Both the position numbers and the translations under genes were made by a program. The notes beneath the pieces are model-generated. The model was given only the letters and a program-made list of their open reading frames with translations. It made no database searches and was not told where the DNA came from. From contig OZ244713.1 of the NCBI GenBank assembly GCA_965218885.1, positions 3,128,638 to 3,192,637 of the forward strand: a stretch of DNA of 64,000 bases, written 5' to 3'. Shown here one piece after another: positions 1 through 52,661 of the stretch. The stretch's first letter is position 1, and every line of letters starts with the position of its first letter. The DNA is from a bacterium (GTDB lineage Bacteria; UBA8248).

Positions 1-175
1 CCGCATCAGCCATCGTCATAGGCTCGGCTTCTGTGACATTCCCTCCCTCATCGGTCGAAAATGACCCTCAAGGGGGGAGTGATTTTCCTCCCTCGTCGGT
101 CGGAAGAATTCCTCCTTTCTCACTCGGATTTGATATTCATCAATCGCGTTTGACACTCCCGCGCATCGGTCTGGA

Positions 176-205
176 TTGACGAAGCGCGCGGTCCTTCTTT
201 ATAGT
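176..205 (+). promoter_or_regulatory. Sigma70-like promoter TTGACG-18bp-TATAGT inside the repeat element; repeated at 597-626, 1673-1702 and 2094-2123
   Basis: TTGACG at 176-181 and TATAGT at 200-205 with an 18-bp spacer, about 70 nt upstream of the AAGGAG RBS and ATG of each small gene. The same hexamers and spacing are read before copies 2, 4 and 5. Confidence 0.55.
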
Positions 206-275
206 CATTAGCATCACGAGGCGTATGAAAACGCTCCCGCATTGGTCGCGTTTTACCATCGCCAAGGAGAAACGC

Positions 276-509
276 ATGACGACGTATGAACACCTGAATC
301 TCACCATCGCCTTCCTGAGCCTCCTCGCCTCCTACGGCGGCCTTGCGCTCATCTACTACGGCATCCGCGTCATGGCGAAGGGCGCCGAAACCCGCGCGGC
401 CGACTCCGAGCGCAAGCACGAGGAGTCGATGGCGTCGCTGCGCGAACTCATCGACGGGCAGGCGGAAAGCCGCATGGCCCTGCGCAAACTCATCGAGCGA
501 ACCGGATAG
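276..509 (+). CDS. Small single-TM protein, copy 1 (77 aa, one SERKHEESMAS unit, ..RKLIERTG tail)
   Basis: AAGGAG RBS 6 nt before the ATG (MTTYEHLNLT). Copy 3 has the same ATG with no upstream in-frame extension. A hydrophobic helix LTIAFLSLLASYGGLALIYYGI is followed by a charged helical tail. Confidence 0.6.
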   Translation: MTTYEHLNLTIAFLSLLASYGGLALIYYGIRVMAKGAETRAADSERKHEESMASLRELIDGQAESRMALRKLIERTG

Positions 510-696
510 CGCACCAAAGCAGCAAACGCTCCCGCATTGGTCGCGTCAAACACTCATTCATCAATCGCGTTTGACGCTCCCGCGCATCGGTCTGGATTGA
601 CGAAGCGCGCGGTCCTTCTTTATAGTCATTAGCATCACGAGGCGTATGAAAACGCTCCCGCATTGGTCGCGTTTTACCATCGCCAAGGAGAAACGC

Positions 697-996
697 ATGA
701 CGACGTATGAACACCTGAATCTCACCATCGCCTTCCTGAGCCTCCTCGCCTCCTACGGCGGCCTTGCGCTCATCTACTACGGCATCCGCGTCATGGCGAA
801 GGGCGCCGAAACGCGCGCGGCCGACTCCGAGCGCAAGCACGCGCAAGTGATGACCGACTCCGAGCGCAGGCACAATGAGTTCATGACCGACTCCGAGCGC
901 AGGCACGAGGAGTCGATGGCGTCGCTGCGCGAACTCATCGACGGGCAGGCGGAAAGCCGCATGGCCCTGCGCCAACTCATCGAGCGAACCGGATAG
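697..996 (+). CDS. Small single-TM protein, copy 2 (99 aa, three 11-aa SERKH/SERRH repeats)
   Basis: Paralog of copy 1; it differs by two extra in-frame 33-bp repeat units and a K-to-Q change in the tail. Confidence 0.6.
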   Translation: MTTYEHLNLTIAFLSLLASYGGLALIYYGIRVMAKGAETRAADSERKHAQVMTDSERRHNEFMTDSERRHEESMASLRELIDGQAESRMALRQLIERTG

Positions 997-1210
997 CGAA
1001 CCAAAGCGGCAAACAGAATTCCTTCTTAATCAGTCGGAAGAATTCCTCTCTCCTCGGTCGGAAGAATTCCTCCTTTCTCACTCGGATTTGATATTCATCA
1101 ATCGTGTTTGACGCTCCCGCGCATCGGTCTGGATTGACGAAGCGCGCGATCTGTTGTTATCGTAATAGACGTCCCGAAGCGCCGGAGGACCCGTCGCCAA
1201 GGAGAAACGC

Positions 1211-1543
1211 ATGACGACGTATGAACACCTGAATCTCACCATCGCCTTCCTGAGCCTCCTCGCCTCCTACGGCGGCCTTGCGCTCATCTACTACGGCATC
1301 CGCGTCATGGCGAAGGGCGCCGAAACGCGCGCGGCCGACTCCGAGCGCAAGCACGCGCAAGTGATGACCGACTCCGATCGCAGGCACAATGAGTTCATGA
1401 CCGACTCCGAGCGCAAGCACGATGAGTTCATGACCGACTCCGAGCGCAGGCACGAGGAGTCGATGGCGTCGCTGCGCGAACTCATCGACGGGCAGGCGGA
1501 AAGCCGCATGGCCCTGCGCCAACTCATCGAGCGAACCGGATAG
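1211..1543 (+). CDS. Small single-TM protein, copy 3 (110 aa, four 11-aa repeats)
   Basis: Paralog with a variant 5' UTR but the same RBS; it is the longest member of the repeat-number series. Confidence 0.6.
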   Translation: MTTYEHLNLTIAFLSLLASYGGLALIYYGIRVMAKGAETRAADSERKHAQVMTDSDRRHNEFMTDSERKHDEFMTDSERRHEESMASLRELIDGQAESRMALRQLIERTG

Positions 1544-1772
1544 CGAACCAAAGCGGCAAACAGAATTCCTCCTTAATCAGTCGGAAGAATTCCTCTCTCC
1601 TCGGTCGGAATTCACCACACTCGGAATTGATATTCATCAATCGTGTTTGACACTCCCGCGCATCGGTCTGGATTGACGAAGCGCGCGGTCCTTCTTTATA
1701 GTCATTAGCATCACGAGGCGTATGAAAACGCTCCCGCATTGGTCGCGTTTTACCATCGCCAAGGAGAAACGC

Positions 1773-2006
1773 ATGACGACGTATGAACACCTGAATCTCA
1801 CCATCGCCTTCCTGAGCCTCCTCGCCTCCTACGGCGGCCTTGCGCTCATCTACTACGGCATCCGCGTCATGGCGAAGGGCGCCGAAACGCGCGCGGCCGA
1901 CTCCGAGCGCAAGCACGAGGAGTCGATGGCGTCGCTGCGCGAACTCATCGACGGGCAGGCGGAAAGCCGCATGGCCCTGCGCAAACTCATCGAGCGAACC
2001 GGATAG
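1773..2006 (+). CDS. Small single-TM protein, copy 4 (77 aa; same protein as copy 1)
   Basis: Same 77-aa product as copy 1. Confidence 0.6.
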   Translation: MTTYEHLNLTIAFLSLLASYGGLALIYYGIRVMAKGAETRAADSERKHEESMASLRELIDGQAESRMALRKLIERTG

Positions 2007-2193
2007 CGCACCAAAGCGGCAAACAAATTCTCGCTTCTCACTCGGAATTGATATTCATCAATCGCGTTTGACGCTCCCGCGCATCGGTCTGGATTGACGA
2101 AGCGCGCGGTCCTTCTTTATAGTCATTAGCATCACGAGGCGTATGAAAACGCTCCCGCATTGGTCGCGTTTTACCATCGCCAAGGAGAAACGC

Positions 2194-2460
2194 ATGACGA
2201 CGTATGAACACCTGAATCTCACCATCGCCTTCCTGAGCCTCCTCGCCTCCTACGGCGGCCTTGCGCTCATCTACTACGGCATCCGCGTCATGGCGAAGGG
2301 CGCCGAAACGCGCGCGGCCGACTCCGAGCGCAAGCACGAGCAGGTGATGACCGCATCCGAGCGCAGGCATGATGAGGCCATGGCGTCCCTGCGCGAACTC
2401 ATCGACGGGCAGGCGGAAAGCCGCATGGCCCTGCGCCAACTCATCGAGCGAACCGGATAG
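2194..2460 (+). CDS. Small single-TM protein, copy 5 (88 aa, two repeats)
   Basis: Paralog with two 11-aa repeat units. Confidence 0.6.
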   Translation: MTTYEHLNLTIAFLSLLASYGGLALIYYGIRVMAKGAETRAADSERKHEQVMTASERRHDEAMASLRELIDGQAESRMALRQLIERTG

Positions 2461-3760
2461 CGAACCAAAGCGGCAAACAGAATTCCTCTCTCCTCGGTCG
2501 GAAGAATTCCTCTCTCCTCGGTCGGAATTCACCACACTCGGGAAAGCCTGACTTGATCAGTCGGCAAACGCTCTCGCATTGGTCGCGTCAAACAAATCCT
2601 CGCTCCTCACTCGGATTTGATATTCATCAATCGTGTTTGACCTTGGGGGTCATAGCCTACATAGAAGGAAGGAGAACCACTCCCCCTTGAGGGTCAAGCC
2701 CGATTGAAGAATGAGGGATTGTCGGCAAGACGAGGACGAAGTCTGAAGTCGCGTCGGTGGGGGGTCAATCGCGACTGATGAAGGAGCGATTGCTGCGAAC
2801 GAGGAAAATAACAATACGCAATTCCTCGCTCCTCGCTCGGAAGAATTCCTCTCTCCCCGGTCGGAATTCACCCCCACCGGTTCGCTTGCGGGCTTGCGCC
2901 CTTACCTCACCGACAATCCCTCATTCTTCAATCGGGAAACCCTCCTTCCTCAGTCGGGTTTCACCCTCAAGGGGGGAGTGTTTCTTGCTCTTTCATCGAC
3001 CGCGTCAAACCCTCGTTCATCGGGGCTTTTTCAACAACCCCGCATTGGTCGGAATTGATCCTCTTGCCGTCATTCCGGCGAATGTTGGTGGCAACCGACA
3101 GGTTGACCAGAGCCGACTGGAATGCGACATCGCATGACGTTCAAAAGGACGGCCTCAAAGAGGATAAATCAAAAAGCAAAAGGCAAATTCCCTGGATTCC
3201 GGCATCCGCCGGAATGACGAACCAAAATCGTCAAACGCTCCCGCATTGGTCGGAATTCATCACATTGGTTGGGTTTGGCGCGCAATTCCCCGCATTTGGC
3301 GTCGCCGCGTCCGCAACGGGATGCGCGAGAATCCGGTTCGTAAACGCAGTTTCCCGCTTGCACTTGAGCATCATGAGGAAGGCACGATGAAAAAGGGAAT
3401 TTCAGGGGATCATTTCTTCCGCACGCACCTGGCGAATCCCTCGCGGCGGTCGCAATCGCATTTGGCGGACCTCTCGCTCTACCCGCAGGCCGACGGCTCC
3501 GGCGGGGCGATGGAACTCTCAGGCCCCTTCGAGGACGCGCAAACCGCAATCGCTTCTTCATCAGTCGCGATTGACATGAAAAATACGATAAATATCGATA
3601 AATACATGAAAAGGTTTATGGCTCGAACTATCATGGTAATATATTATAATTCATATAATTGTAGATATATATTAAAGTAACATATTAGGAAATTATCGAA
3701 ATTTATCGAATTAAAAACTTTTTTCAAACCCCGCATCAGCCCGCATTTCCCCGCACGGGC
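2460..3760. repeat. Gene-free block of nested hairpin and inverted-repeat (MITE-like) elements ending in an AT-rich tract
   Basis: GGAAGAATTCCTC direct repeats. Inverted copies of a CCCTCAAGGGGGGAGTG hairpin module at 2667-2740 and 2903-2975. Inverted CGTCATTCCGGCG / CGCCGGAATGACG arms at 3060-3075 and 3205-3225. An AT-rich TATCGATAAATA tract at 3575-3720. No ORF here has recognisable features. Confidence 0.7.
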
Positions 3761-3766
3761 CGGGGG

Positions 3767-4300
3767 TCATCTCTTCAGCAGCCACACGCCGTCCTCGCCA
3801 TCCAACTCGCGCATCCGCACCTGGATGTGCTCCTGCAGCGATGTGGGCACGTTCTTGCCGATAAAATCGGGCCGAAACGGCAATTCCCTGTGGCCGCGGT
3901 CTATCAGGGCGGCGAGCCAGATTTTACGGGGCCTGCCCAGCTCCATCATCGCGTCGATGGCCGCGCGCGCCGTCCTGCCCGTGAAGAAGACGTCGTCCAC
4001 CAGGAATACACCCCGATCCGTCAGGTCGAAATCGATGAGCGTGGGCTCGAAACCGCGCCCCTCGGTGGGGTGCCCCGCGTCGTCGCGGTGGACGCCGATG
4101 TCGAGCGCGCCCAGGGGGGGCGAAATGCCTTCGAGTTCCTCGATATGCCCCGCAAGCCGCCTCGCGAGCGGTTCTCCCCGGGTGAGCACCCCGATGAGAG
4201 CGATGTTCTTATCCGCCGCGCACGCCTCCATCATCTCGGAGGCGATTCTCTTGAGCGAGAACTCGAGCTCTTGCGCCGTCATGATGGATATCGGAGCCAT
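3767..4300 (-). CDS. pyrR: PyrR-family bifunctional pyrimidine regulator / uracil phosphoribosyltransferase (orphan copy, no attenuator)
   Basis: 177 aa with a PRTase fold ([21 protein letters not shown]); closely resembles the pyrR at 39481. It lies downstream of cca with no PyrR-binding leader. Confidence 0.85.
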   Translation of the reverse strand: MAPISIMTAQELEFSLKRIASEMMEACAADKNIALIGVLTRGEPLARRLAGHIEELEGISPPLGALDIGVHRDDAGHPTEGRGFEPTLIDFDLTDRGVFLVDDVFFTGRTARAAIDAMMELGRPRKIWLAALIDRGHRELPFRPDFIGKNVPTSLQEHIQVRMRELDGEDGVWLLKR

Positions 4301-39229: not shown

Positions 39230-39348
39230 TTTCCCTCTTGCTCTTTAAGGGAAAGACTGTTAGTTTTATCGAAATGGCCCGGCTGGATGCTGCGCCGGGT
39301 GGAAATGACATGGTGACATAGAAATTCCCCTTTAATGTCGTCCCGTGA

Positions 39349-39373
39349 GGCGGCGAAGGAGGAAACCCGGATG
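39349..39373 (+). promoter_or_regulatory. PyrR-binding loop in the pyr leader (UCCCGUGAGGCGGCGAAGGAGG)
   Basis: Matches the PyrR anti-antiterminator consensus UCCNGNGAGGC...GAAGGA. Lies immediately 5' of a terminator and pyrR. Confidence 0.7.
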
Positions 39374-39408
39374 CTTGCCGTCCTCTCGTCTGTTCTTAGA
39401 ACTCCATG

Positions 39409-39445
39409 CCCTTTGGGCATGGAGTTTTTTTTGTTCTTTTTTGAT
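39409..39445 (+). terminator. pyr operon attenuator terminator (gaactccatgccc-ttt-gggcatggagtt plus T run)
   Basis: 12-bp perfect stem followed by TTTTTTTTGTTCTTTTTT, 35 nt before pyrR. Confidence 0.8.
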
Positions 39446-43561: not shown

Positions 43562-46500
43562 ATGCCGAAAAGAACGGACATTTCCAAAATACTCATCATC
43601 GGCTCCGGCCCCATCGTCATCGGGCAGGCGTGCGAATTCGACTATTCGGGCGCGCAGGCGTGCAAGGCCCTGCGCGAGGAGGGCTACGAGGTGGTGCTGG
43701 TGAACTCGAATCCCGCCACCATCATGACCGACCCCGAGATGGCCGACGCCACCTACGTCGAACCCATCACGCCCAGGGTGGTGGAGGAGATCATCAAAAT
43801 AGAGCGGCCAGACGCTCTCCTGCCCACCATGGGCGGACAGACGGGGCTGAACACGGCGGTGGCGCTGGCCGAGTCCGGCGTGCTCGACGCCTGGGGCGTG
43901 GAGCTCATCGGCGCGAAGCTGCCCGCCATCCGCTGTGCGGAAGACAGGGACCTGTTCAAGAAGGCGATGCGCGAGATAGGCCTCGATCTGCCCCGAAGCG
44001 AGGTCGTCACCACGATGGATGAGGGCTGGACGGCGGCGCGCGACATCGGCTTTCCGGTCATCTTGAGGCCCGCCTTCACGCTGGGCGGCTCTGGCGGGGC
44101 CGTGGCGTTCACCGAGGAGGAGTTCGAGGCGAAACTCGCCTGGGCCCTCTCCGAAAGCCCGGTGGATCAGGTTTTATTGGAAGAAAGCGTCCTGGGCTGG
44201 AAGGAATTCGAGTTGGAAGTGATGAGGGACCTCAAGGACAACGTGTCCATCATCTGCTCCATCGAGAATTTCGACCCCATGGGCGTCCACACGGGCGATT
44301 CCATCACCGTCGCGCCCGCGCAGACGCTCTCCGACCGCGAATACCAGGCCATGCGCGACGCCGCCATCGCCTGCATCCGCAAGGTGGGGGTCGAGTGCGG
44401 CGGCTCGAACATCCAATTCGGCCTAAACCCCGCGGATGGCCGGATGGTCGTGATCGAGATGAACCCCAGGGTGTCGAGAAGCTCCGCCCTTGCGAGCAAG
44501 GCCACCGGGTTTCCCATCGCCAAGATAGCCGCCAAGCTCGCCGTGGGGCTAACGCTCGATGAGATACCCAACGACATCACGCGGCGCACACCTGCTTCTT
44601 TCGAGCCCTCCATCGACTATTGCGTCACGAAGATACCGCGCTTCACCTTTGAGAAATTCCCCGAAACGCCACCCGTCCTCGACACCCAGATGCGCTCGGT
44701 GGGGGAGGTGATGTCCATCGGCAGAACGTTCCGGGAATCGCTCATGAAAGCCGTCCGCTCGCTCGAGATCGACCGCTACGGCTTGGCGGACCCCAAGCCC
44801 GAAGAGCTCGAAGGGTTATCCGCCGATGCGCGCAAGGAGCTGATTTCAGAGAGTTTGAGGATACCCGGCCCCGATCGTCTATGGAGCGTCGCCCGCGCGT
44901 ACAGGGAAGGATGGACGGAAGAGGAGATTTACGGCGCGTCGGGGGTCGACCCCTGGTTTCTCGCGCATCTGGCCGAACTCGTGGAAATGGAAGAATACGC
45001 CGCAGCGCCCGGTCTGCTGGGCGAAGAGGCGAGCCTTCGCTTTTTGAAGCAAAACGGCTTCAGCGACCTGGACATCGCCCGGAGACAGGGCGTGGACGAG
45101 GGAGCGGTGCGTGCGGCGAGACACCGCCTGGGCGTCCGGCCCGTTTATAAGCAGGTGGATACCTGCGCCGCGGAATTCGAGGCCCATACGCCGTATCTCT
45201 ACTCGACCTATGAGCAGGAAGACGAGGCCCCGCCGACTGCGCGCGAAAAGATCATCATCCTGGGCGGCGGGCCGAACCGCATCGGGCAGGGCATCGAGTT
45301 CGACTATTGCTGCGTGCACGCCGTGATGGCGCTGGCGGAAGCCGGCTTCGAGGCCATCATGGTGAACTGCAACCCCGAGACGGTGAGCACGGACTACGAT
45401 ACGAGCGACAGGCTCTATTTCGAACCCCTCACGCTCGAGGACGTGCTCGAAATCGTTCACCGCGAAAACCCCGTGGGCGTCATCGTGCAGTTCGGCGGCC
45501 AGACGCCGCTCAAGCTCGCCCTGGCGCTCAAAGAGGCGGGCGCGCCGATTCTGGGAACCTCGCCCGAGAGCATCGATCTGACCGAGGACAGGGACCGCTT
45601 CAGCAACATGCTCAAACAACTCCATCTCACCCAGCCGCCATCGGGCACGGCCACGAACACCGAGGATGCGCTCGAGATCGCGCGCGCCATCGGCTATCCC
45701 GTTCTCATGCGTCCGAGCTACGTGCTCGGCGGGCGCGCCATGGCGCTCGTGCACGATGCGGACGAACTCGCGGCTTATATGCGGGACGCCGTCCGCGCCT
45801 CCGCCGAGCGGCCCGTGCTCATCGACAGGTTTCTGGAAGACTCCGTGGAGGTCGACGTGGATGCGGTCTCGGACGGCGAGAACGTGATCATCGCGGGCGT
45901 GATGGAGCATATCGAAGAAGCGGGAATCCACAGCGGCGATTCCGCCTGCTCGATTCCCCCCTACACGCTGGGGCCCGACATCGTGGAGGAGTTAAAGCGC
46001 CAGACGAGGATTCTGGCGAAATCACTGAACGTCGTGGGTCTCAACAACGTGCAGTTCGCCATCCACAAGCGCCAGGTCTTCATTCTGGAGGTGAACCCGC
46101 GCGCGAGCCGCACGGTGCCCTACGTGAGCAAGGTCGTCGGCGTGCCCTTCGCCAAGGTCGCCGCCCGCGTGATGGCGGGCGAGACGCTCCCCGCGCTGGG
46201 TCTCGATCACGACGTGGAGCCCAGGCATTTCGGCGTGAAAGAGGCGGTGTTCCCGTTCAAGAAATTCCCCGGCGTGGACGTGATCCTGGGACCCGAGATG
46301 AAATCCACGGGCGAGGTGATGGGTTTGGGGGAGGATTTCCCCACGGCCTATCTCAAGGCGCAGGAGGGGGCCGGCTCCGTCCTGCCGCTTTCGGGCCGGG
46401 CGTTCATCTCCGTTCGGGACGGGGACAAGGCGGCCATCATCCCCCTGGCGCAACTGCTCGTCGAACTCGGGTTCTCCCTGGTGGCGACGGCGGGCACGAG

Positions 46501-46813
46501 AGCGACGCTCATGGCCAACGGCATCGAGGCGGATTTCGTCCATAAGGTGACGGACGGCGAGCCGGGCCACATCGTGGAGCAGATGGAGGCGGGGGAGGTG
46601 CAGTTCGTGCTCAACACCACGGCGGGCAAGCAATCCATCAAGGACAGCTATTCCATACGCAGAACGGCGCTTTTGCGCAACATTTTCTATTGCACCACAC
46701 TGGCCGCCGGGCAGGCGGCCATCCGCGCCATCCGGATTCTGCGCGAAAACGATTACTCGGTGCGCTCCTTACAGGATTATCACGCAAACATGCCCACCCT
46801 CGCGCGTGTCTAG
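43562..46813 (+). CDS. carB: Carbamoyl-phosphate synthase large subunit
   Basis: 1083 aa with duplicated ATP-grasp halves and an MGS-like C-terminal domain. Confidence 0.95.
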
Positions 46814-47156: not shown

Positions 47157-47277
47157 AAACGTATTGACCCGGTTCGTCCGCATGGGCCCTGAGAGAGGAG
47201 CGAGGCGGGGGTAGCGGCCGCATGAAAACCTGGGCGCCGGATGGATCGGAACGGACGCTGAAAACACAGGAGAACGC

Positions 47278-47954
47278 GATGTCGAGCGGATCGACCGACC
47301 CGAACGCGCGCGGTGAAGACGGATCCACGGCCTTACACCATGCGGTGATGGGTGAAGGCGTGGGAGCCGTCGAGAGCCTGCTCGCGGCCGGGGCCGAGGT
47401 GGATGCGCGCGACAAGAACGGATGGACGCCGCTCCACTGGGCGGCGCGCCACGCCGAAGACCCGGCGGTGCTCGGCGTCTTGACGCGGGCCGGCGCTCAG
47501 CGAGGCTCCTGCGATCCTGGAAGCGCTTCTCGAAGCCGGGGCCGACCCCAACGCGGAGGGTATATACGGATGGACGCCTCTTCATGCGGCGGCGGCCTTT
47601 AGAAGAACCGGGACGAACGTGGAGATATTGGTGCGTGGGGGCGCCCGGGTGGACACGCCGGACAGAAGAGGCCTGGCGCCCCTTCACTGGGCGGGGATGC
47701 GCACCAAGGCCCCCGAGATCGTGAAGGCCCTCCTCGCGGCGGGCGCCAACCCCGACGTGCGCGACAAGCGTGTGCGAACCCCGCTTCACTACGCGGCGGC
47801 GAAAGACGAAGTCCTCCTCGAAGTCGTCGAAGCCCTCCTCGACGCAGGCGCAGACCCCGCCGCGCGAGATTCCGAGAGTAGGACGCCTGCTGAGGGTGTC
47901 AAGCCTGACTCTTCGTTTCTGGGAACGGAGGCGTACCGGAGATTGGGTGGGTAG
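47278..47954 (+). pseudogene. Ankyrin-repeat protein disrupted by a frameshifting deletion between repeats near 47500
   Basis: ANK consensus (GxTPLHxAA...LLxAGAD) runs in the frame of ORF 47222-47602 up to LTRAGAQ. It then continues in the frame of ORF 47619-47954 from AILEALLEAGADPNAEG. About 20 codons of one repeat are missing at the junction. Confidence 0.6.
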
Positions 47955-48095
47955 GGAGCGAATCTGACCGATGAGCGGGTGAGTTTTCCTTCCCTTGGGT
48001 GATTTTCTCTGAAGCTACAGGCAGTTTTCTGTCATGTCGAACATCTTCGAGAACATCGATAAGATCGACAGAAGAAGTACAAAGCGCTAAACACG

Positions 48096-48506
48096 TCAAT
48101 CTTGCGCATCTGACTCATCTGGAATAGTAGAACTTCTATCTTGTTCTGCAATACGTTTTTTAATTTTCCTCACAACATCAGTAACTTCGCCCTTCATTTT
48201 ATACCACATGAGCATGCAAAAAGATCCGCCAACAATGCCTACAACGCTTAGGACTACAAATACGACGAAGATTTTAGTCGACGGAATATCAACGCTGAAC
48301 AACGTGCCTAAGAATGAAATTCCTATTGATAATAGGAAAATCCCAAAATTCAATAGAAGTGAGCTAGGCGAGCCTTTCTCTAATATGTCTAATTCATTAT
48401 CCGTTATTTCATACAATGACAATGAATCTACACGACCGCGCACGATTCTAACTTCGTTGTCCCCTGTAACTTCGTTATGTTCTGGAAGATTCCCCTCTTG
48501 GCTCAC
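48096..48506 (-). CDS. Small two-TM membrane protein in a low-GC island (hypothetical)
   Basis: 136 aa with two hydrophobic helices and a charged C-terminal tail. Its start overlaps the stop of the upstream 87-aa gene. Confidence 0.5.
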   Translation of the reverse strand: MSQEGNLPEHNEVTGDNEVRIVRGRVDSLSLYEITDNELDILEKGSPSSLLLNFGIFLLSIGISFLGTLFSVDIPSTKIFVVFVVLSVVGIVGGSFCMLMWYKMKGEVTDVVRKIKKRIAEQDRSSTIPDESDAQD

Positions 48507-48769
48507 TATAGATTGTCCTTGAGCCAGTCGTTTCTACACTGGGTATTACGCCACGCAGCTTCGACGCCAGACTTCACAACAAATAGACGGTCGTCACTAT
48601 CCATGACACCGCTAAGATGGTCACGTATATCAATCGCGGACTTAGTTGTAACAACTGCCCAAGTAGAGTCGGTAATGCGTGCCCATTTGTTATACGATTT
48701 TATTGCGTCGTACAGGGACTCGTAGTCTCTCTTTTTTCTTAGGTCATACGAAATGATGTAGCAGGTCAT
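48506..48769 (-). CDS. Small alpha/beta protein with a Cas2/VapD-like beta-alpha-beta-beta-alpha-beta pattern (hypothetical, 87 aa)
   Basis: YIISYDL..(helix)..WARITDSTWAVV..(helix)..DDRLFVV layout. Low GC. The similarity to Cas2/VapD is by secondary-structure pattern only. Confidence 0.4.
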   Translation of the reverse strand: MTCYIISYDLRKKRDYESLYDAIKSYNKWARITDSTWAVVTTKSAIDIRDHLSGVMDSDDRLFVVKSGVEAAWRNTQCRNDWLKDNL

Positions 48770-49274
48770 TAATACACCTTATTGTTTTAACGTGGCTCAG
48801 CGTTCAAATGGTTAGTTATAAATACAACATAAATATCTTGAAGAGTGCATGCAGGTTAATTGATAATTCGATAAACAAATTTCACTCTGGATAGGAGACA
48901 TTGGTAATTTCAATTGTGGGTTAGTATGTAATCCCTGACAAAGCGAGAATGAAAATGATAAACATGTGGTCACAATGTTTCAATACTCATAGTCAAAATA
49001 ATTTTACTCTATTTCGTTAAGTCGATCTAGTTCTGCCAAGATTCCTTCTAATTCAGGTAGTTTTATTCGGGTATGGATCATTTACCAGTGCAAAGGACGT
49101 GTATTGGTTGTTCAAATTGGTGCGAGTGAAAAGCGAAGCCCGAACGAACTGTTCAGGAGTAAACCTTGATATGATGATGACTCTAGGATAGAGATACGAA
49201 ATGACACATATCAAGAAACAACAATATCCGCGCCCAGAAGAAATAAACGAATAAAATTGCCAAGGAGATTGACG

Positions 49275-49568
49275 ATGGCTAAAACAGATGTGAATGTCCG
49301 CGAAGCATCAGTATGGGCTGTTGAGGCAAAGTGCGGTGATTCCTCTTCTCGCTGGCGATTTAATAAGGAAAGCGATGCAAAGTGGTTTAGAAAGATTGCT
49401 CAAGAATGGTACTGTGCTCGTTGTCCTAAATGCGGAATGAAAGATATCGTGAATATAAACTTAGAATTAAATGATCACTATGATGAAGATCAAGAGATAT
49501 TCACAGAAGTGATAGTGTCCTGTGGCTTCTGGGATTGTGACTTCGCAAAGAGGATAGTGCAATCTTAA
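49275..49568 (+). CDS. Small Cys-rich (zinc-finger-like) protein, hypothetical (97 aa)
   Basis: AAGGAG RBS before MAKTDVNV; motifs CARCPKCG and SCGFWDCDF. Low GC. Confidence 0.45.
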   Translation: MAKTDVNVREASVWAVEAKCGDSSSRWRFNKESDAKWFRKIAQEWYCARCPKCGMKDIVNINLELNDHYDEDQEIFTEVIVSCGFWDCDFAKRIVQS

Positions 49569-49641
49569 GAGCTCGTAAAGGCTGATAGGATATTTTTAAG
49601 GCATCTCCTGGGACTGTATTGAGAAAGAGAAGTTTTTTGCT

Positions 49642-49792
49642 CACTCCCCCCTTGAGGGGGAGTCGGTGAGCTAAGGGGGTAAGTCCGCAAGCGAACCGGT
49701 GGGGGGTGCTTTTCATTTAGAACCGTCCCCCCACCGCCTCAGCCTTCGCACAAAACGCTCGGCTTCGTCGACTCCCCCTCAAGGGGGGAGTG
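49642..49792. repeat. MITE-like structured element with 24-bp palindromic terminal inverted repeats (cactccccccttgagggggagtcg) and an internal G6/C6 hairpin
   Basis: TIRs at 49642-49665 and 49769-49792. A second copy lies in inverse orientation at 56944-57135. Confidence 0.7.
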
Positions 49793-50949: not shown

Positions 50950-51340
50950 GGAGCGGGCATATGCGGCATCAACACTCCCCCCTTGAGGGGGCTGTTGAAT
51001 AACCCTGTTTTCGTGATTCGGTGAATGGAACCAACCAGGGAGGGGGCCGTAGGGACAGGTCGCGACCTGTCCTTACGAAGCGGTGCGGCTTTGTTCGTCA
51101 TTCCGGCGAAAGCCGGAATCCATTTGTTTTGCCTTTGTTATTAATTTTCTGAATGAATCCCGCCAATGACGGGGAGATGAAATGACGGAGTAGTGTCATT
51201 CTGCTCGACAATGGATTCCGGCTTTCGCCGGAATGACGGCGGTGGTCAATTCAGGCCGAGGAGGTCTTTTTCAACAACCCCTTGAGGGTCGGGCTTCCCG
51301 AGGAGGAAAGACCGACCCTCAAGGGTGGAGTGATTTTAGG
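50950..51340. repeat. Cluster of three hairpin repeat elements
   Basis: cactccccccttgaggggg at 50965-50985. Inverted-repeat arms cgtcattccggcgaaagccggaatc and gattccggctttcgccggaatgacg at 51095-51120 and 51213-51238. cccttgagggtcgg ... ccgaccctcaaggg at 51279-51326. Confidence 0.7.
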
Positions 51341-52661
51341 AACTTTCCTCCTTCGGGACTTCCGACATCGCCCTCTCGTACTCAGCGATCCAAACTTCGG
51401 CTTCTTCTGCGGTGTAGGCTCCGATGATGGCTCCGCTGTATTGAGGTAATTCATTGCTTTCTGACTGGTCAATGTGGGGCGTCAATTTTTCTCGCAACCT
51501 CCTTGCTCCTTCATCGGATAAGCCCACGACAAGGGAATCCATATCTGCCTGGCTTAAGCCACCCGAAAAGAATACACCAGATAGATCAGTATCCCGACCG
51601 ATTGACCCCTTCATGCGTTCTGAAAACCCACCGGAAGGTTTCGGCCCACTACTGACCACTCCTTGAAATAGCGCCTTGTGAAGATCTGCCTCGTGCAACC
51701 GCGCTTTGGTTAGAATAGCCCCTTGAAACTGCGTCCCATTTTCCGGTTGCCCGTTAATTACATTCGCAAAAAGAGTGGCTCCGTACAGGCACGCCCAGGA
51801 AAGAATGGCTCCTTGTAGTCGCGCCCCGCCGAGATTGGCTTTGTGCAGTTGCGCCCCTGTAAGATCAGCCCCTTGCAAGTACGCATTGAGTAGAACAGCC
51901 TCTTGTAGGCGCGCCACCCTCAAACGCGCCCCTTGTAACTGAGCCCGCCAAAGAAAAACTCCTTGCAGTTGTGCCTCACGAAGATCAGACTTTTGCAGGT
52001 AGGTTTTGTCTAGGACGGCCCCTCGCAAACGCGCTTTTTCGAGATCGGCCCCATTAAGCCAACTCCCCTGCAAGTTGATGTCGAGGCCCTTAAAGATTTC
52101 ATGCTCCTGTACGAAAAGTAGCGTCAACAGACTCTGGATTTCCTCCGAGGGTTTCGACTTGTGCTGGTACCGATATTCGGTCTCGCCCGTTGTCCGGCGG
52201 ATGTGGGCGCAGAGAATATCCAACACAGTTTGACGAAGACTCTCGGTATCTTGCGCCAGATGGAAGAGTTCGTAGGCTCCGCCCAGGCGAACGGAGTCCG
52301 ACTCATGCCCCAGATGCTCGATGGCATTTTTCAGGCGCTCCTGCCGCAGTCCCTTCTCGGCGTTCTCGTTGGCTTTGGCTTGTTCCGCCGTGGCACCGGC
52401 CTGCGCGTTCGCCGCGTCCTCCATCGCCTTGGCGCGTTTGTAAGATAGTACAGCCTGGATGGCGAGCAGTATGCCGCCCATGGCGACACCGAGAAAATTC
52501 AGGATCCTGAATTTATCGGACAACCCAAAGAGCCTGAAGGCCCACTCCGGCTTTTCGTTGAACATGACGCCTGCAAAAGCCGCCAGCAGGCCCGCCAGTA
52601 AAGTAACGAGAAAAGGAACTATCGAGTTTTTCAGTTTGTTCAGGATCGTAATGTACATCAT
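51336..52661 (-). CDS. Membrane-anchored pentapeptide-repeat protein
   Basis: Two N-terminal TM helices, then about 30 tandem A(D/N)LxxAxLxGAxL pentapeptide units. Confidence 0.8.
   Translation of the reverse strand: MMYITILNKLKNSIVPFLVTLLAGLLAAFAGVMFNEKPEWAFRLFGLSDKFRILNFLGVAMGGILLAIQAVLSYKRAKAMEDAANAQAGATAEQAKANENAEKGLRQERLKNAIEHLGHESDSVRLGGAYELFHLAQDTESLRQTVLDILCAHIRRTTGETEYRYQHKSKPSEEIQSLLTLLFVQEHEIFKGLDINLQGSWLNGADLEKARLRGAVLDKTYLQKSDLREAQLQGVFLWRAQLQGARLRVARLQEAVLLNAYLQGADLTGAQLHKANLGGARLQGAILSWACLYGATLFANVINGQPENGTQFQGAILTKARLHEADLHKALFQGVVSSGPKPSGGFSERMKGSIGRDTDLSGVFFSGGLSQADMDSLVVGLSDEGARRLREKLTPHIDQSESNELPQYSGAIIGAYTAEEAEVWIAEYERAMSEVPKEESS

What the first reader, a model, noticed from the sequence alone, without database searches (positions are those of the whole stretch)
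100..2640. Tandem array of five paralogous small membrane-protein genes that differ by an in-frame 33-bp repeat number, each with its own promoter
Five head-to-tail units each encode a 77-110-aa protein, MTTYEHLNLTIAFLSLLASYGGLALIYYGIRVMAKGAETRAAD-[SERKHxxxMxD]n-LRELIDGQAESRMALR(K/Q)LIERTG. The protein has one TM helix and a charged helical tail. Copies differ only in the number of 33-nt in-frame repeats (n = 1, 3, 4, 1, 2) and a K/Q change in the tail. Every copy sits behind its own TTGACG-18-TATAGT promoter and AAGGAG RBS carried on a repeat element. This looks like a contingency, copy-number-variable or antigenically variable locus of unknown function. I know of no described family it matches.
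Basis: seen in the sequence. Interest (0 to 1): 0.75.

Follow-up and report, generated by a model that had tools for sequence, protein, structure and literature searches.

The report
Variable tandem array of small membrane-rod genes
Five neighbouring copies of a small, undescribed membrane-anchored helical-rod protein gene, each with its own promoter, form an array whose copy number (1 to 7) and internal 11-residue module number differ between closely related marine Nitrospinota genomes; what the protein does is still unknown.

Summary
Window 100-2641 holds five head-to-tail genes of 77, 99, 110, 77 and 88 aa. Each has a sigma-70-like promoter and an AAGGAG ribosome-binding site, and they differ mainly by in-frame 33-nt modules.

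The genes are real. Median dN/dS is about 0.35. The promoter position is conserved in 43 of 70 family copies. The same locus in genomes with about 96% identical flanks carries 1, 2, 2, 5, 5 or 7 copies with 1-5 modules.

The protein family has no match above threshold in Pfam, NCBIfam, PADLOC, PHROGs or PDB. It comprises 178 close relatives and about 980 wider ones, in Nitrospinota and Gammaproteobacteria MAGs, probably from sponges. The architecture is an MTTYE stub, one TM helix, then one continuous helix (AF2 pLDDT 89) built of [ED]S[ED]R[RK]HxExM modules spaced 11, 7 or 18 residues apart, ending in LIERT.

Tandem arrays with mixed protein lengths recur in two distant lineages (3 and 6 copies).

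My best reading is unequal recombination acting on autonomous genes for a length-tunable, probably cytoplasmic, membrane-anchored rod.

Antigenic variation or a contingency switch is not supported. A type I toxin is weakly suggested by sub-threshold Hol_Tox hits, but I found no antisense promoter and no sequestered ribosome-binding site.

The intergenic "repeat element" is a REP-like hairpin family.

The parts
176..205 (+). Promoter-like site of copy 1 (TTGACG-18-TATAGT); predicted TSS near 212
   Evidence: The position is conserved in 43/70 family copies.
228..254 (+). 27-nt REP-like hairpin (AAAACGC-tcccgcattggtc-GCGTTTT) inserted in the leader of copy 1. Identical insertions lie at 649-675, 1725-1751 and 2146-2172. 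Copy 3 has none.
   Evidence: folds at -9.2 kcal/mol, z -2.3
276..509 (+). Copy 1 CDS, 77 aa, 1 module, K variant; AAGGAG at 264-269
597..626 (+). Promoter-like site of copy 2
697..996 (+). Copy 2 CDS, 99 aa, 3 modules (33-nt repeats 821-909), Q variant
1015..1093 (+). Intergenic tandem 24-nt units, which are chained degenerate REP-like hairpins
1134..1163 (+). Promoter-like site of copy 3 (TTGACG-18-TATCGT, weaker -10), followed by the leader type without a hairpin
   Evidence: The same leader occurs in L001, L002 and L003.
1211..1543 (+). Copy 3 CDS, 110 aa, 4 modules (33-nt repeats 1335-1460)
1562..1616 (+). Intergenic 24-nt tandem units ending in a perfect hairpin at 1587-1613
1673..1702 (+). 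Promoter-like site of copy 4
1773..2006 (+). Copy 4 CDS, 77 aa, 1 module. The protein is identical to copy 1 and the 300-nt unit is 99% identical.
2094..2123 (+). Promoter-like site of copy 5
2194..2460 (+). Copy 5 CDS, 88 aa, 2 modules with substitutions
2479..2641 (+). Right end of the array: REP-like hairpins (2504-2530, 2593-2619) and the terminal partial junction repeat at 2613-2641. Similarity to a unit stops after this point.
34..152 (+). Left boundary: degenerate hairpins (34-66, 103-135) and the first junction repeat at 124-152
2642..3600 (.). Non-coding repeat island after the array. REP-like hairpins lie in both orientations (2692-2724 -, 2763-2795 -, 2840-2872 +, 2933-2965 +, 3544-3576 +). 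About 2640-3250 is absent from conspecific loci.

Best explanation
The locus is a genuine tandem amplification, polymorphic in the population, of one member of an undescribed family of autonomous small-protein genes.

**Shown.**
- Each unit is a self-contained monocistronic gene: a sigma-70-type promoter, a leader of about 65 nt, a strong Shine-Dalgarno sequence and an ORF.
- The promoter position and leader motifs are conserved across divergent species and across dispersed loci.
- The protein has a conserved MTTYE N-terminal stub and one hydrophobic helix. That helix carries one or two 7-residue modules.
- After the membrane helix comes a single uninterrupted alpha-helix. It is built from a variable number of 11-, 7- or 18-residue modules with the nearly invariant core [ED]S[ED]R[RK]-H-x-E-x-M.
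- The helix continues with 0-3 copies of a 14-residue LRELIDGQAESRMA unit and ends in an invariant LRxLIERT(G/R) cap.
- Copy number and module number differ between conspecific genomes.
- Arrays of mixed-length paralogs recur in distant lineages.

**Inferred: how the array changes.** It expands and contracts by unequal homologous recombination between near-identical units and their junction repeats. Module number changes by the same in-frame 33-bp recombination or slippage.

**Inferred: what the protein is.**
- It sits in the inner membrane N-out/C-in, with its tail projecting into the cytoplasm.
- It probably assembles as a parallel hendecad coiled coil in which Ser/Leu, His and Met form the core stripe.
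- Gene copy number would then set dosage. Module number would set how far the conserved C-terminal cap sits from the membrane, about 16 Å per module.
- On this reading it is a length-tunable membrane-anchored rod or spacer. The His/Met layers might additionally bind a ligand or metal.

The cellular role is not known.
For: **The genes are real.**
- Median dN/dS is 0.33-0.36 over the N-terminal 48-55 codons, across about 390 pairs.
- The search returned 178 close homologs, 128 clusters at 50% identity and 980 relatives with a profile of the distant members.

**Each unit is autonomous.**
- A sense promoter whose -10 box ends 41-80 nt before the ATG occurs in 43/70 copies.
- The promoter and leader align across species.
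- Neighbouring genes are unrelated housekeeping genes.

**The locus is polymorphic.** The syntenic locus next to pyrR/cca has 1 (L001), 2 (L002), 2 (L062), 5 (L061), 5 (window) and 7 (L060) copies, with 1-5 modules. Flanking DNA is 95.7-96.3% identical.

**Recombination is visible in the sequence.**
- The units are mosaics. The 5' CDS and -35 region are identical, but -10 boxes, leaders and 3' flanks differ.
- The junction repeat is present at both ends of the array.

**Structure.**
- AF2 predicts a single helix over residues 4-98, with mean pLDDT 89.
- The best 19-residue hydrophobicity window is 9-27, with a Kyte-Doolittle (KD) mean of 1.81.
- There are 0 K/R before the TM and 3 K/R after it.
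- H-x-E-x-M accounts for 759 of 865 motifs. Spacings are 11 (333 times), 18 (128) and 7 (78) residues.

**Arrays recur elsewhere.**
- L063 has 3 copies of 106, 86 and 95 aa, each with TTGACA-17-TAGATT.
- L065 has 6 copies of 93, 162, 104, 93, 104 and 111 aa.
Against: - No expression data and no experimental topology exist.
- The short isoform's hydrophobic segment is marginal for a TM. My hand estimate of its KD mean is about 0.9.
- AF2 modelled a monomer only, so oligomerisation is untested. The tail could equally be a single stable helix rather than a coiled coil.
- No partner for the LIERT cap is known.
- Copy-number variation could be neutral churn rather than tuned dosage.
- The spacer idea rests on analogy only.
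- Reads were not available to verify the assembly of near-identical 421-bp units.
Confidence: 0.55

Rival explanations
1. This is an array of type I toxin-antitoxin-like modules. On this reading each unit encodes a membrane-active toxin related to the TxpA/BsrG (Hol_Tox) peptides. It would be kept silent by an antisense or trans RNA that has not been recognised, as in the tandem LDR (ldr/rdl) repeats of E. coli.
For: - Hol_Tox (PF16935) is the commonest sub-threshold Pfam hit. It aligns residues 1-18, matches 10 of 45 members and has a best E of 0.008.
- The genes are small, hydrophobic at the N-terminus, stand-alone, multi-copy and tandemly duplicated, in units of 420-570 bp. These are the criteria used to discover zorO, and they resemble the LDR repeats (PMC8309996, PMC4147584).
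- Between conspecific genomes the units are more similar (97-99%) than the flanks (96%).
Against: - All Hol_Tox scores are below the gathering cut-off (about 13 bits against 23.3).
- The proteins are 57-210 aa with a long conserved hydrophilic tail and a conserved C-terminal cap. Type I toxins are under 60 aa.
- No sigma-70-like antisense promoter overlaps any of the 70 genes or their 3' flanks (none in window 1-3600).
- The leaders are not unusually stable (z -0.06 and +0.8) and leave the Shine-Dalgarno sequence unpaired. There is no conserved leader structure.
- Paralogs are kept at orthologous loci across species.
Confidence: 0.12
2. This is a metal- or ligand-buffering protein. The repeated His...Met pairs (H-x3-M, with an invariant Glu) would bind Cu(I)/Ag(I), another metal, or haem. 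Gene copy number and module number would then scale binding capacity, as with CUP1 or metallothionein amplification or the His/Met motifs of SilE/PcoE.
For: - H, E and M are nearly invariant in every module across roughly 300 family sequences (759/865 motifs). This is more constraint than a coiled-coil core requires.
- They remain conserved in the distant subfamilies.
- Both copy number and module number vary, which fits selection on dosage.
- One distant member gives a weak Metal_resist (PF13801) hit, E 0.001, below threshold.
Against: - The predicted topology puts the tail in the cytoplasm. From general knowledge, Met/His copper sites are typical of the periplasm.
- Recalled from the literature and not tested here, SilE-type motifs are HxxM/MxxH rather than HxxxM.
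- There are no Cys residues and no metal-resistance genes nearby.
- No significant match to any metal-binding family was found.
Confidence: 0.12
3. This is a contingency or antigenic-variation locus. Repeat-number changes would generate surface or antigenic diversity or switch expression.
For: Module and copy number are polymorphic among conspecific genomes.
Against: - The repeats are 33-nt, in-frame and imperfect (82-84% matches), so there is no frameshift switch.
- Promoter spacing is constant.
- The variable tail is predicted to be intracellular, and the only exposed stub is invariant.
- In a diderm an inner-membrane protein is not surface-exposed.
Confidence: 0.05
4. This is neutral or selfish repeat churn. 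The array would be a by-product of a recombination-prone, REP-rich intergenic island, with no selected function for copy number or length. Extra copies would be transient.
For: - The array lies in a cluster of REP-like hairpins: 21 of the window's 22 CM hits fall in 1-3600.
- IS elements have inserted into arrays in L002 and L060.
- Most family loci elsewhere hold 1-2 copies.
- Copy number ranges from 1 to 7 at 96% ANI.
Against: - All copies keep intact ORFs, promoters and ribosome-binding sites.
- Mixed-length arrays recur independently in two distant lineages.
- Coding sequence is under purifying selection.
Confidence: 0.13
5. This is an assembly artefact: one or two real copies have been expanded or mis-joined.
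For: Units 1 and 4 are 99% identical over 300 nt. Reads are not available.
Against: - The units are distinguishable by module number, leader type and 3' flank.
- Independent assemblies from other samples show 5- and 7-copy arrays at the same locus.
Confidence: 0.03

Closest known systems
E. coli LDR (ldr/rdl) and zor/orz tandem type I toxin loci; B. subtilis TxpA/BsrG (Pfam Hol_Tox PF16935)
   Same: - Tandem direct repeats of about 0.4-0.5 kb.
- Each repeat has its own promoter and a small N-terminally hydrophobic ORF.
- Multi-copy and lineage-restricted.
- The N-terminus M-T-T-Y-E-x-L resembles the Hol_Tox profile (PMC4147584, PMC8309996).
   Different: - The proteins are 2-5 times longer, with a conserved modular hydrophilic helix and C-terminal cap.
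- No antisense promoter, no SD-sequestering leader, and scores below the family cut-off.
Coiled-coil molecular rulers and spacers (Braun's lipoprotein Lpp; the WbdD coiled coil that sets O-antigen length). Recalled from the literature, not tested here.
   Same: A membrane-attached helical rod whose length is set by the number of heptad or hendecad units. Length variants would change a distance.
   Different: - No sequence similarity.
- The anchor is an N-terminal TM helix.
- The partner and the compartment are unknown.
- Here many length variants coexist in one genome and one array.
Small bitopic inner-membrane proteins with a cytoplasmic helical domain (PspB; ElaB/YqjD/YgaM). Recalled from the literature.
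   Same: Similar size, a single TM helix plus a charged helical cytoplasmic part, and several paralogs per genome.
   Different: - No sequence match.
- ElaB-type proteins are C-terminally anchored.
- None of them has variable internal modules or tandem arrays.
His/Met-repeat metal binders SilE/PcoE, and dosage arrays such as yeast CUP1. Recalled from the literature.
   Same: Repeated His...Met pairs on helices, and capacity that could scale with repeat number and gene copy number.
   Different: - The spacing is HxxxM rather than HxxM.
- There is no signal peptide and the tail is predicted to be cytoplasmic.
- No homology and no metal-related gene context.
REP/BIME (REPIN) extragenic palindromes, for the intergenic hairpins
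   Same: - Imperfect palindromes of 27-33 nt.
- They lie in intergenic clusters, in both orientations and sometimes in tandem.
- They are numerous: 111 CM hits in 572 kb.
   Different: - The 13-nt loop is conserved while the 7-bp stem covaries (AAAACGC, GAATTCC, CAATCGC, CAAACCC and others).
- There is no GTAG head.
- No RAYT gene was looked for.
- One copy is inserted inside the mRNA leader of four genes.

Membership tests
Type I toxin-antitoxin (Ldr/Rdl, TxpA/RatA, BsrG/SR4; Pfam Hol_Tox) | Score at or above the Hol_Tox gathering threshold (23.3 bits) | tested here: not met
   The three window copies score 12.5-13.3 bits (E 0.076-0.14). Across the family 10/45 members hit and the best E is 0.008. 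All are below the cut-off.
Type I toxin-antitoxin (Ldr/Rdl, TxpA/RatA, BsrG/SR4; Pfam Hol_Tox) | Toxin is a very small (usually under 60 aa), mostly hydrophobic peptide | tested here: not met
   Window copies are 77-110 aa and the family spans 57-210 aa. About 70% of each protein is a charged helix.
Type I toxin-antitoxin (Ldr/Rdl, TxpA/RatA, BsrG/SR4; Pfam Hol_Tox) | Antisense (cis) or nearby trans RNA antitoxin with its own promoter | tested here: inconclusive
   No sigma-70-like antisense promoter overlaps any of 70 genes or their 3' flanks or lies in window 1-3600. A consensus scan cannot exclude weak or alternative-sigma promoters or a trans RNA.
Type I toxin-antitoxin (Ldr/Rdl, TxpA/RatA, BsrG/SR4; Pfam Hol_Tox) | Toxin mRNA leader structure that occludes the ribosome-binding site | tested here: not met
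   Leaders fold no better than shuffles (z -0.06 and +0.82), and the SD is unpaired in the centroid. RNAalifold finds no consensus pairs in 22 leaders.
Type I toxin-antitoxin (Ldr/Rdl, TxpA/RatA, BsrG/SR4; Pfam Hol_Tox) | Growth arrest or lysis on over-expression | not testable with these tools
   This needs an experiment.
Contingency (phase or antigenic variation) locus | Hypermutable simple repeats that change reading frame or promoter spacing | tested here: not met
   The repeats are 33-nt, in-frame and 82-84% matched. Promoter spacing is 18 nt in all five copies.
Contingency (phase or antigenic variation) locus | Variable part is surface-exposed | tested here: not met
   By the positive-inside rule the variable tail is cytoplasmic. 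This is a prediction only.
Contingency (phase or antigenic variation) locus | Repeat number differs between closely related strains | tested here: met
   Module number is 1-5 and copy number 1-7 at the same locus in genomes with about 96% identical flanks.
Hendecad/heptad coiled coil | Periodicity of 11 or 7 residues with a regular core stripe | tested here: met
   Motif spacings are 11 (333 times), 18 (128) and 7 (78). S/L, H and M recur at i, i+4 and i+8. AF2 predicts a continuous helix.
Hendecad/heptad coiled coil | Oligomerisation of the helices | not testable with these tools
   Only a monomer could be modelled. A single stable alpha-helix is an alternative: there are 9 i/i+4 opposite-charge pairs in the 80-residue tail.
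SilE/PcoE-type His/Met metal binders | HxxM/MxxH motifs in a secreted (periplasmic) protein | tested here: not met
   The motif here is H-x-E-x-M, that is HxxxM. There is no signal peptide and the tail is predicted to be cytoplasmic. No family hit was found.
REP/BIME elements (intergenic hairpins) | Short imperfect palindrome, repeated many times, extragenic and clustered | tested here: met
   - 43 perfect 7+13+7 hairpins with the loop signature in 575 kb, against 0 in a shuffle.
- 111 CM hits in 572 kb.
- 21/22 window hits lie in the non-coding island 1-3600.
- The stem statistics are partly circular, because the seed hairpins were chosen for being perfect.
REP/BIME elements (intergenic hairpins) | Cognate RAYT (REP-associated tyrosine transposase) in the genome | not tested
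   Only 64 kb of this genome was available, and no search for a RAYT was made.

The most novel reading that the evidence does not exclude
The genes belong to a previously unrecognised superfamily of modular 'His/Met-zipper' membrane-anchored rods. It has about 1,000 members and spans at least Nitrospinota and Gammaproteobacteria, apparently mostly sponge-associated MAGs. On this reading cells deliberately keep sets of different lengths, encoded as tandem arrays. That would be a new kind of length-graded cytoplasmic-face scaffold, ruler or ligand-binding rod, possibly tied to the symbiotic lifestyle.
Probability: 0.2. Interest if true: 0.75.

Novelty: new variant of a known kind. Interest (0 to 1): 0.5.

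Why it matters
Small membrane proteins are badly under-annotated. This family has about a thousand members and no database entry. It shows an unusually clean modular design: a TM module, an 11-residue H-x-E-x-M module and a conserved cap. It also shows natural length series within a single genome.

If the rod or ruler idea holds, the natural arrays are a ready-made allelic series for testing how helix length near the membrane matters.

If the proteins turn out to be toxins or metal binders, they would extend those classes to a new architecture and to uncultured symbionts.

The locus is also a clear natural example of copy-number and in-frame module polymorphism at about 96% ANI. This affects how metagenome assemblers and gene callers treat such regions. 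Public gene calls for this locus start at an upstream ATG inside an inserted hairpin.

Tried and rejected
**Searches that found nothing usable.**
- Pfam, NCBIfam, PADLOC and PHROGs scans gave only sub-threshold coiled-coil noise and Hol_Tox.
- A PDB sequence profile gave nothing with E below 6.
- Foldseek of the AF2 model against PDB gave no hits, as expected for a single helix.
- An Rfam scan of the window found only a PyrR element, far from the locus.
- A viral-contig scan found no relatives, so there is no phage link.

**Tests for regulatory features of a type I toxin, all negative.**
- RNAalifold on 22 leaders found no conserved structure.
- Folding the leaders showed they are not unusually stable.
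- The antisense promoter scan found none overlapping the genes.

**Tests for function by association or by evolution pattern, all negative.**
- Neighbouring genes are unrelated metabolic or housekeeping genes, so there is no conserved partner.
- For concerted evolution within genomes, mean differences within and between genomes are equal (3.3 against 3.2 per 123 nt). Allele classes are shared across genomes rather than homogenised within each genome.
- REP-like hairpins are 6-fold denser within 400 nt of family genes. This is probably just intergenic bias, so I do not claim a specific association.

**Look-ups that failed.** Exact look-ups of the 110-aa and 105-aa products found nothing on record.

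Full report
**1. What is in the sequence**

Window 100-2641 contains five same-strand units. Each has an ORF that begins MTTYEHLNL:
- 276-509, 77 aa
- 697-996, 99 aa
- 1211-1543, 110 aa
- 1773-2006, 77 aa
- 2194-2460, 88 aa

The repeat finder reports five 300-nt copies. Four are 96-100% identical. Copy 3 drops to 66% ungapped because of an indel in its leader. TRF reports the 33-nt in-frame repeats.

TTGACG-18-TATAGT sites lie at 176, 597, 1673 and 2094, and TTGACG-18-TATCGT lies at 1134. In total the region has eight promoter-like sites, against 1.5 expected from shuffles. AAGGAG lies 6 nt before each ATG.

An alignment of the units shows three things:
- The -35 region and the first 144 nt of the CDS are identical in all five units, apart from one synonymous site.
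- Unit 3 has a different -10 box and leader, and lacks a 27-nt hairpin that the other four leaders carry.
- The 3' flanks differ in their content of short repeats.

The junction sequence GGAWTTGATATTCATCAATCGYGTTTGAC occurs before the units and once more at 2613-2641, where similarity to a unit ends. Window 1-140 matches, at 98.6%, the sequence immediately left of the first copy in a conspecific contig. The array is therefore probably complete at five copies.

**2. The genes are real and belong to an undescribed family**

A search of 5.8 billion proteins returned 178 relatives, 120 of which were listed. The listed proteins are 67-178 aa and none has a Pfam domain. The few that carry a name are 'hypothetical protein', and some are labelled Nitrospinae.

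A scan of species-representative genomes found 56 loci, mostly in Nitrospinota MAGs. Several lie in the same genome, mostly as single genes or pairs. The isolate names (RHO1, COS4, SB0662) look like those of a sponge MAG collection (PMC8163846). That link is my inference.

Pairwise dN/dS over the N-terminal 48-55 codons has a median of 0.33-0.36.

In 43 of 70 family copies a sigma-70-like promoter has its -10 box ending 41-80 nt upstream of the ATG. The promoter and leader motifs (GAGGA...GACCC...GGGGAGA) align across species. A second promoter class also exists (ATTGCGGA...GGCTATAATGG).

Several paralogs sit at orthologous positions in different species, as shown by shared downstream sequence. 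Their neighbours are unrelated housekeeping genes such as ffh, MFS and allG. These are therefore stand-alone genes that are maintained over time.

**3. Polymorphism**

The same locus lies between a ~500-600-aa hypothetical gene (itself downstream of an amino-acid kinase gene) and pyrR/cca. In other assemblies it holds:

| Locus | Copies | Notes |
|---|---|---|
| L001 | 1 | |
| L002 | 2 | split by an IS |
| L062 | 2 | |
| L061 | 5 | 67, 70, 77, 88 and 99 aa |
| L060 | 7 | 77-121 aa, with an IS |

The 6 kb to the right of the array is 95.7-96.3% identical to the window in these assemblies.

Module number ranges from 1 to 5. A 7-residue module in the TM helix and the 14-residue C-terminal unit also come and go.

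Individual units are 96-99% identical between genomes. Allele classes are shared between genomes rather than homogenised within each.

This supports the 'copy-number-variable' part of the finding and argues against an assembly artefact.

**4. The protein**

The best 19-residue hydrophobic window is 9-27, with a Kyte-Doolittle (KD) mean of 1.81. There are no K/R residues before it and three within the 15 residues after it, which predicts N-out/C-in. By my hand estimate the short isoform's hydrophobic segment has a KD mean of about 0.9. That is marginal for a TM.

AF2 with 45 sequences predicts one continuous helix over residues 4-98, with mean pLDDT 89.

Across about 300 family sequences the module logo is [ED]-S-[ED]-R-[RK]-H-x-E-x-M-[AT]. 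H-x-E-x-M accounts for 759 of 865 motifs. Module spacings are 11 (333 times), 18 (128) and 7 (78) residues. This is a hendecad/heptad pattern in which S (L/I in distant members), H and M form one stripe.

The C-terminus ends in LRxLIERT(G/R), which is invariant or nearly so.

No library gives a significant match.

**5. A wider superfamily, with recurrent arrays**

A profile search of 1.84 billion representatives found 128 clusters. A second search, using a profile of the distant members, found 980 proteins. Some of these are labelled Gammaproteobacteria MAGs.

The shared consensus is MTxxExAxL, then a TM helix (GxGQxxxIWYGIRxM), then [RHxExM]n, then MxALxxLIERT.

Two distant lineages also carry tandem arrays of mixed lengths:
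- L063 has three copies of 106, 86 and 95 aa, each behind TTGACA-17-TAGATT.
- L065 has six copies of 93, 162, 104, 93, 104 and 111 aa, next to capsule and ABC-transporter genes.

The recurrence of mixed-length arrays is the most suggestive hint that length diversity itself is useful. It could also simply reflect a family that duplicates easily.

**6. The 'repeat element'**

The intergenic DNA is built from units of about 24-33 nt. Each is a 7-bp stem of variable sequence around a conserved 13-nt loop, with consensus CAAWCSC-TCCYTCNTCRGTC-GSGWTTG-ACC.

- Forty-three perfect instances occur in 575 kb of fetched loci, against none in a shuffle.
- A covariance model finds 22 hits in the window, 21 of them within 1-3600.
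- The same model finds 111 hits in 572 kb of loci, in both orientations. In other species a hairpin often starts right at the stop codon.
- The hairpins are 6-fold denser near family genes, but this is probably just because they are intergenic.

They behave like REP/BIME elements. One copy is inserted into the leader of units 1, 2, 4 and 5. It is also in six of the seven L060 units.

The promoter itself is ancestral to the gene, although its -35 box resembles the 3' arm of the element (TTGAC).

**7. Mechanism**

Shown:
- The genes are autonomous.
- The protein is modular and helical.
- Copy number and module number are polymorphic.
- The units are mosaics flanked by junction repeats.

Inferred:
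- Unequal homologous recombination and in-frame slippage create the variation.
- The product is a membrane-anchored cytoplasmic rod, likely a parallel coiled coil with a His/Met core.
- Rod reach changes by about 16 Å per module, and dosage scales with copy number.

**8. Rivals**

- **Type I toxin.** It is weakly suggested by Hol_Tox sub-threshold hits and by the LDR-like layout (PMC4147584, PMC8309996). It is weakened by protein size, by the lack of an antisense promoter and by open, unstructured leaders.
- **Metal binding.** The invariant H/E/M residues suggest it. Predicted topology and the lack of homology count against it.
- **Contingency or antigenic variation.** Not supported.
- **Neutral churn.** Cannot be excluded.
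- **Assembly artefact.** Cannot be fully excluded but is unlikely.

**9. Verdict**

This is an undescribed but sizeable family with a clear modular architecture and natural length series. Its function is unknown. The phenomenon, tandem gene amplification plus in-frame repeat variation, is a familiar one.

Interest 0.5.

Noticed in passing
window 34-3576; also L001-L062: A REP-like hairpin family with a 7-bp covarying stem, a conserved 13-nt loop TCCYTCNTCRGTC and a 3' ACC. It is clustered around the array and occurs in both orientations. Tandem 24-nt versions lie at 1015-1086, 1562-1610, 2479-2527 and 2820-2866. I know of no described equivalent.
   Followed up: partly
window 225-275 (and 646, 1722, 2143): The hairpin inserted in the leader creates an in-frame upstream ATG. 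Public gene calls therefore annotate 94-116-aa products that start MKTLPHWSRFTIAKEKR. The conserved AAGGAG-N6-ATG indicates that the real start is 51 nt downstream.
   Followed up: partly
window 2640-3250: A stretch of about 600 bp that is absent from the conspecific loci. It carries inverted repeats (2682-2738 against 2897-2975, 85% complementary) made of the same hairpins. It looks like a REPIN-like insertion.
   Followed up: partly
window ~3018-3040; many loci (e.g. L002, L006, L007, L016): A second short repeat, GGGGYTGTTGAAAAASCCC or its complement ('ctttttcaacaacccc'), recurs in intergenic DNA of these genomes.
   Followed up: no
L063 1696-3035; L065 3317-5718: Distant relatives (about 35-45% identity) also form tandem arrays of 3 and 6 mixed-length copies. 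The L065 array sits beside capsule-synthesis and ABC-transporter genes, and one copy carries five 18-residue DADDKRHAEAMQRLDAAR repeats.
   Followed up: partly
L002 4457-5803; L060 6906-8300: IS elements (DDE_Tnp_1 transposase) are inserted inside the arrays of two conspecific genomes.
   Followed up: no
L061 5478-5752 (-); L062 6351-6625 (-): A diverged family copy (72-79% identity) in inverted orientation lies upstream of the array in two conspecific genomes. It may be a pseudogene or an older paralog.
   Followed up: no
window 39325-39434 (+): Rfam finds a PyrR-binding RNA element (55.4 bits, just above the gathering score). It lies upstream of a run of ORFs ending in a carB-like 1083-aa gene (43562-46813), which I did not annotate. 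A phosphoribosyltransferase (pyrR-like) gene also lies 35 kb away at 3767-4300 (-).
   Followed up: no
window 47222-47602 and 47619-47954 (+): Two adjacent ORFs both encode ankyrin repeats. This is either a split (frameshifted) gene or two separate ankyrin genes. Ankyrin repeats are typical of sponge symbionts.
   Followed up: partly
window 48000-49700: A low-GC island (43.5% against about 60%) with three orphan ORFs that have no Pfam hit: 48096-48506 (-), a predicted membrane protein; 48506-48769 (-); and 49257-49568 (+). It is probably foreign DNA.
   Followed up: partly
window 51336-52661 (-): A 441-aa protein with N-terminal hydrophobic segments and pentapeptide repeats (PF00805, E 9e-31).
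   Followed up: no
window units against L060/L061/L062 units: Individual units are 97-99% identical between conspecific genomes, while the flanking genes are about 96% identical. The canonical 5' CDS shows 0 differences in 123 nt across four genomes. This could reflect recent exchange or extra constraint at the nucleotide level. It is unexplained.
   Followed up: partly
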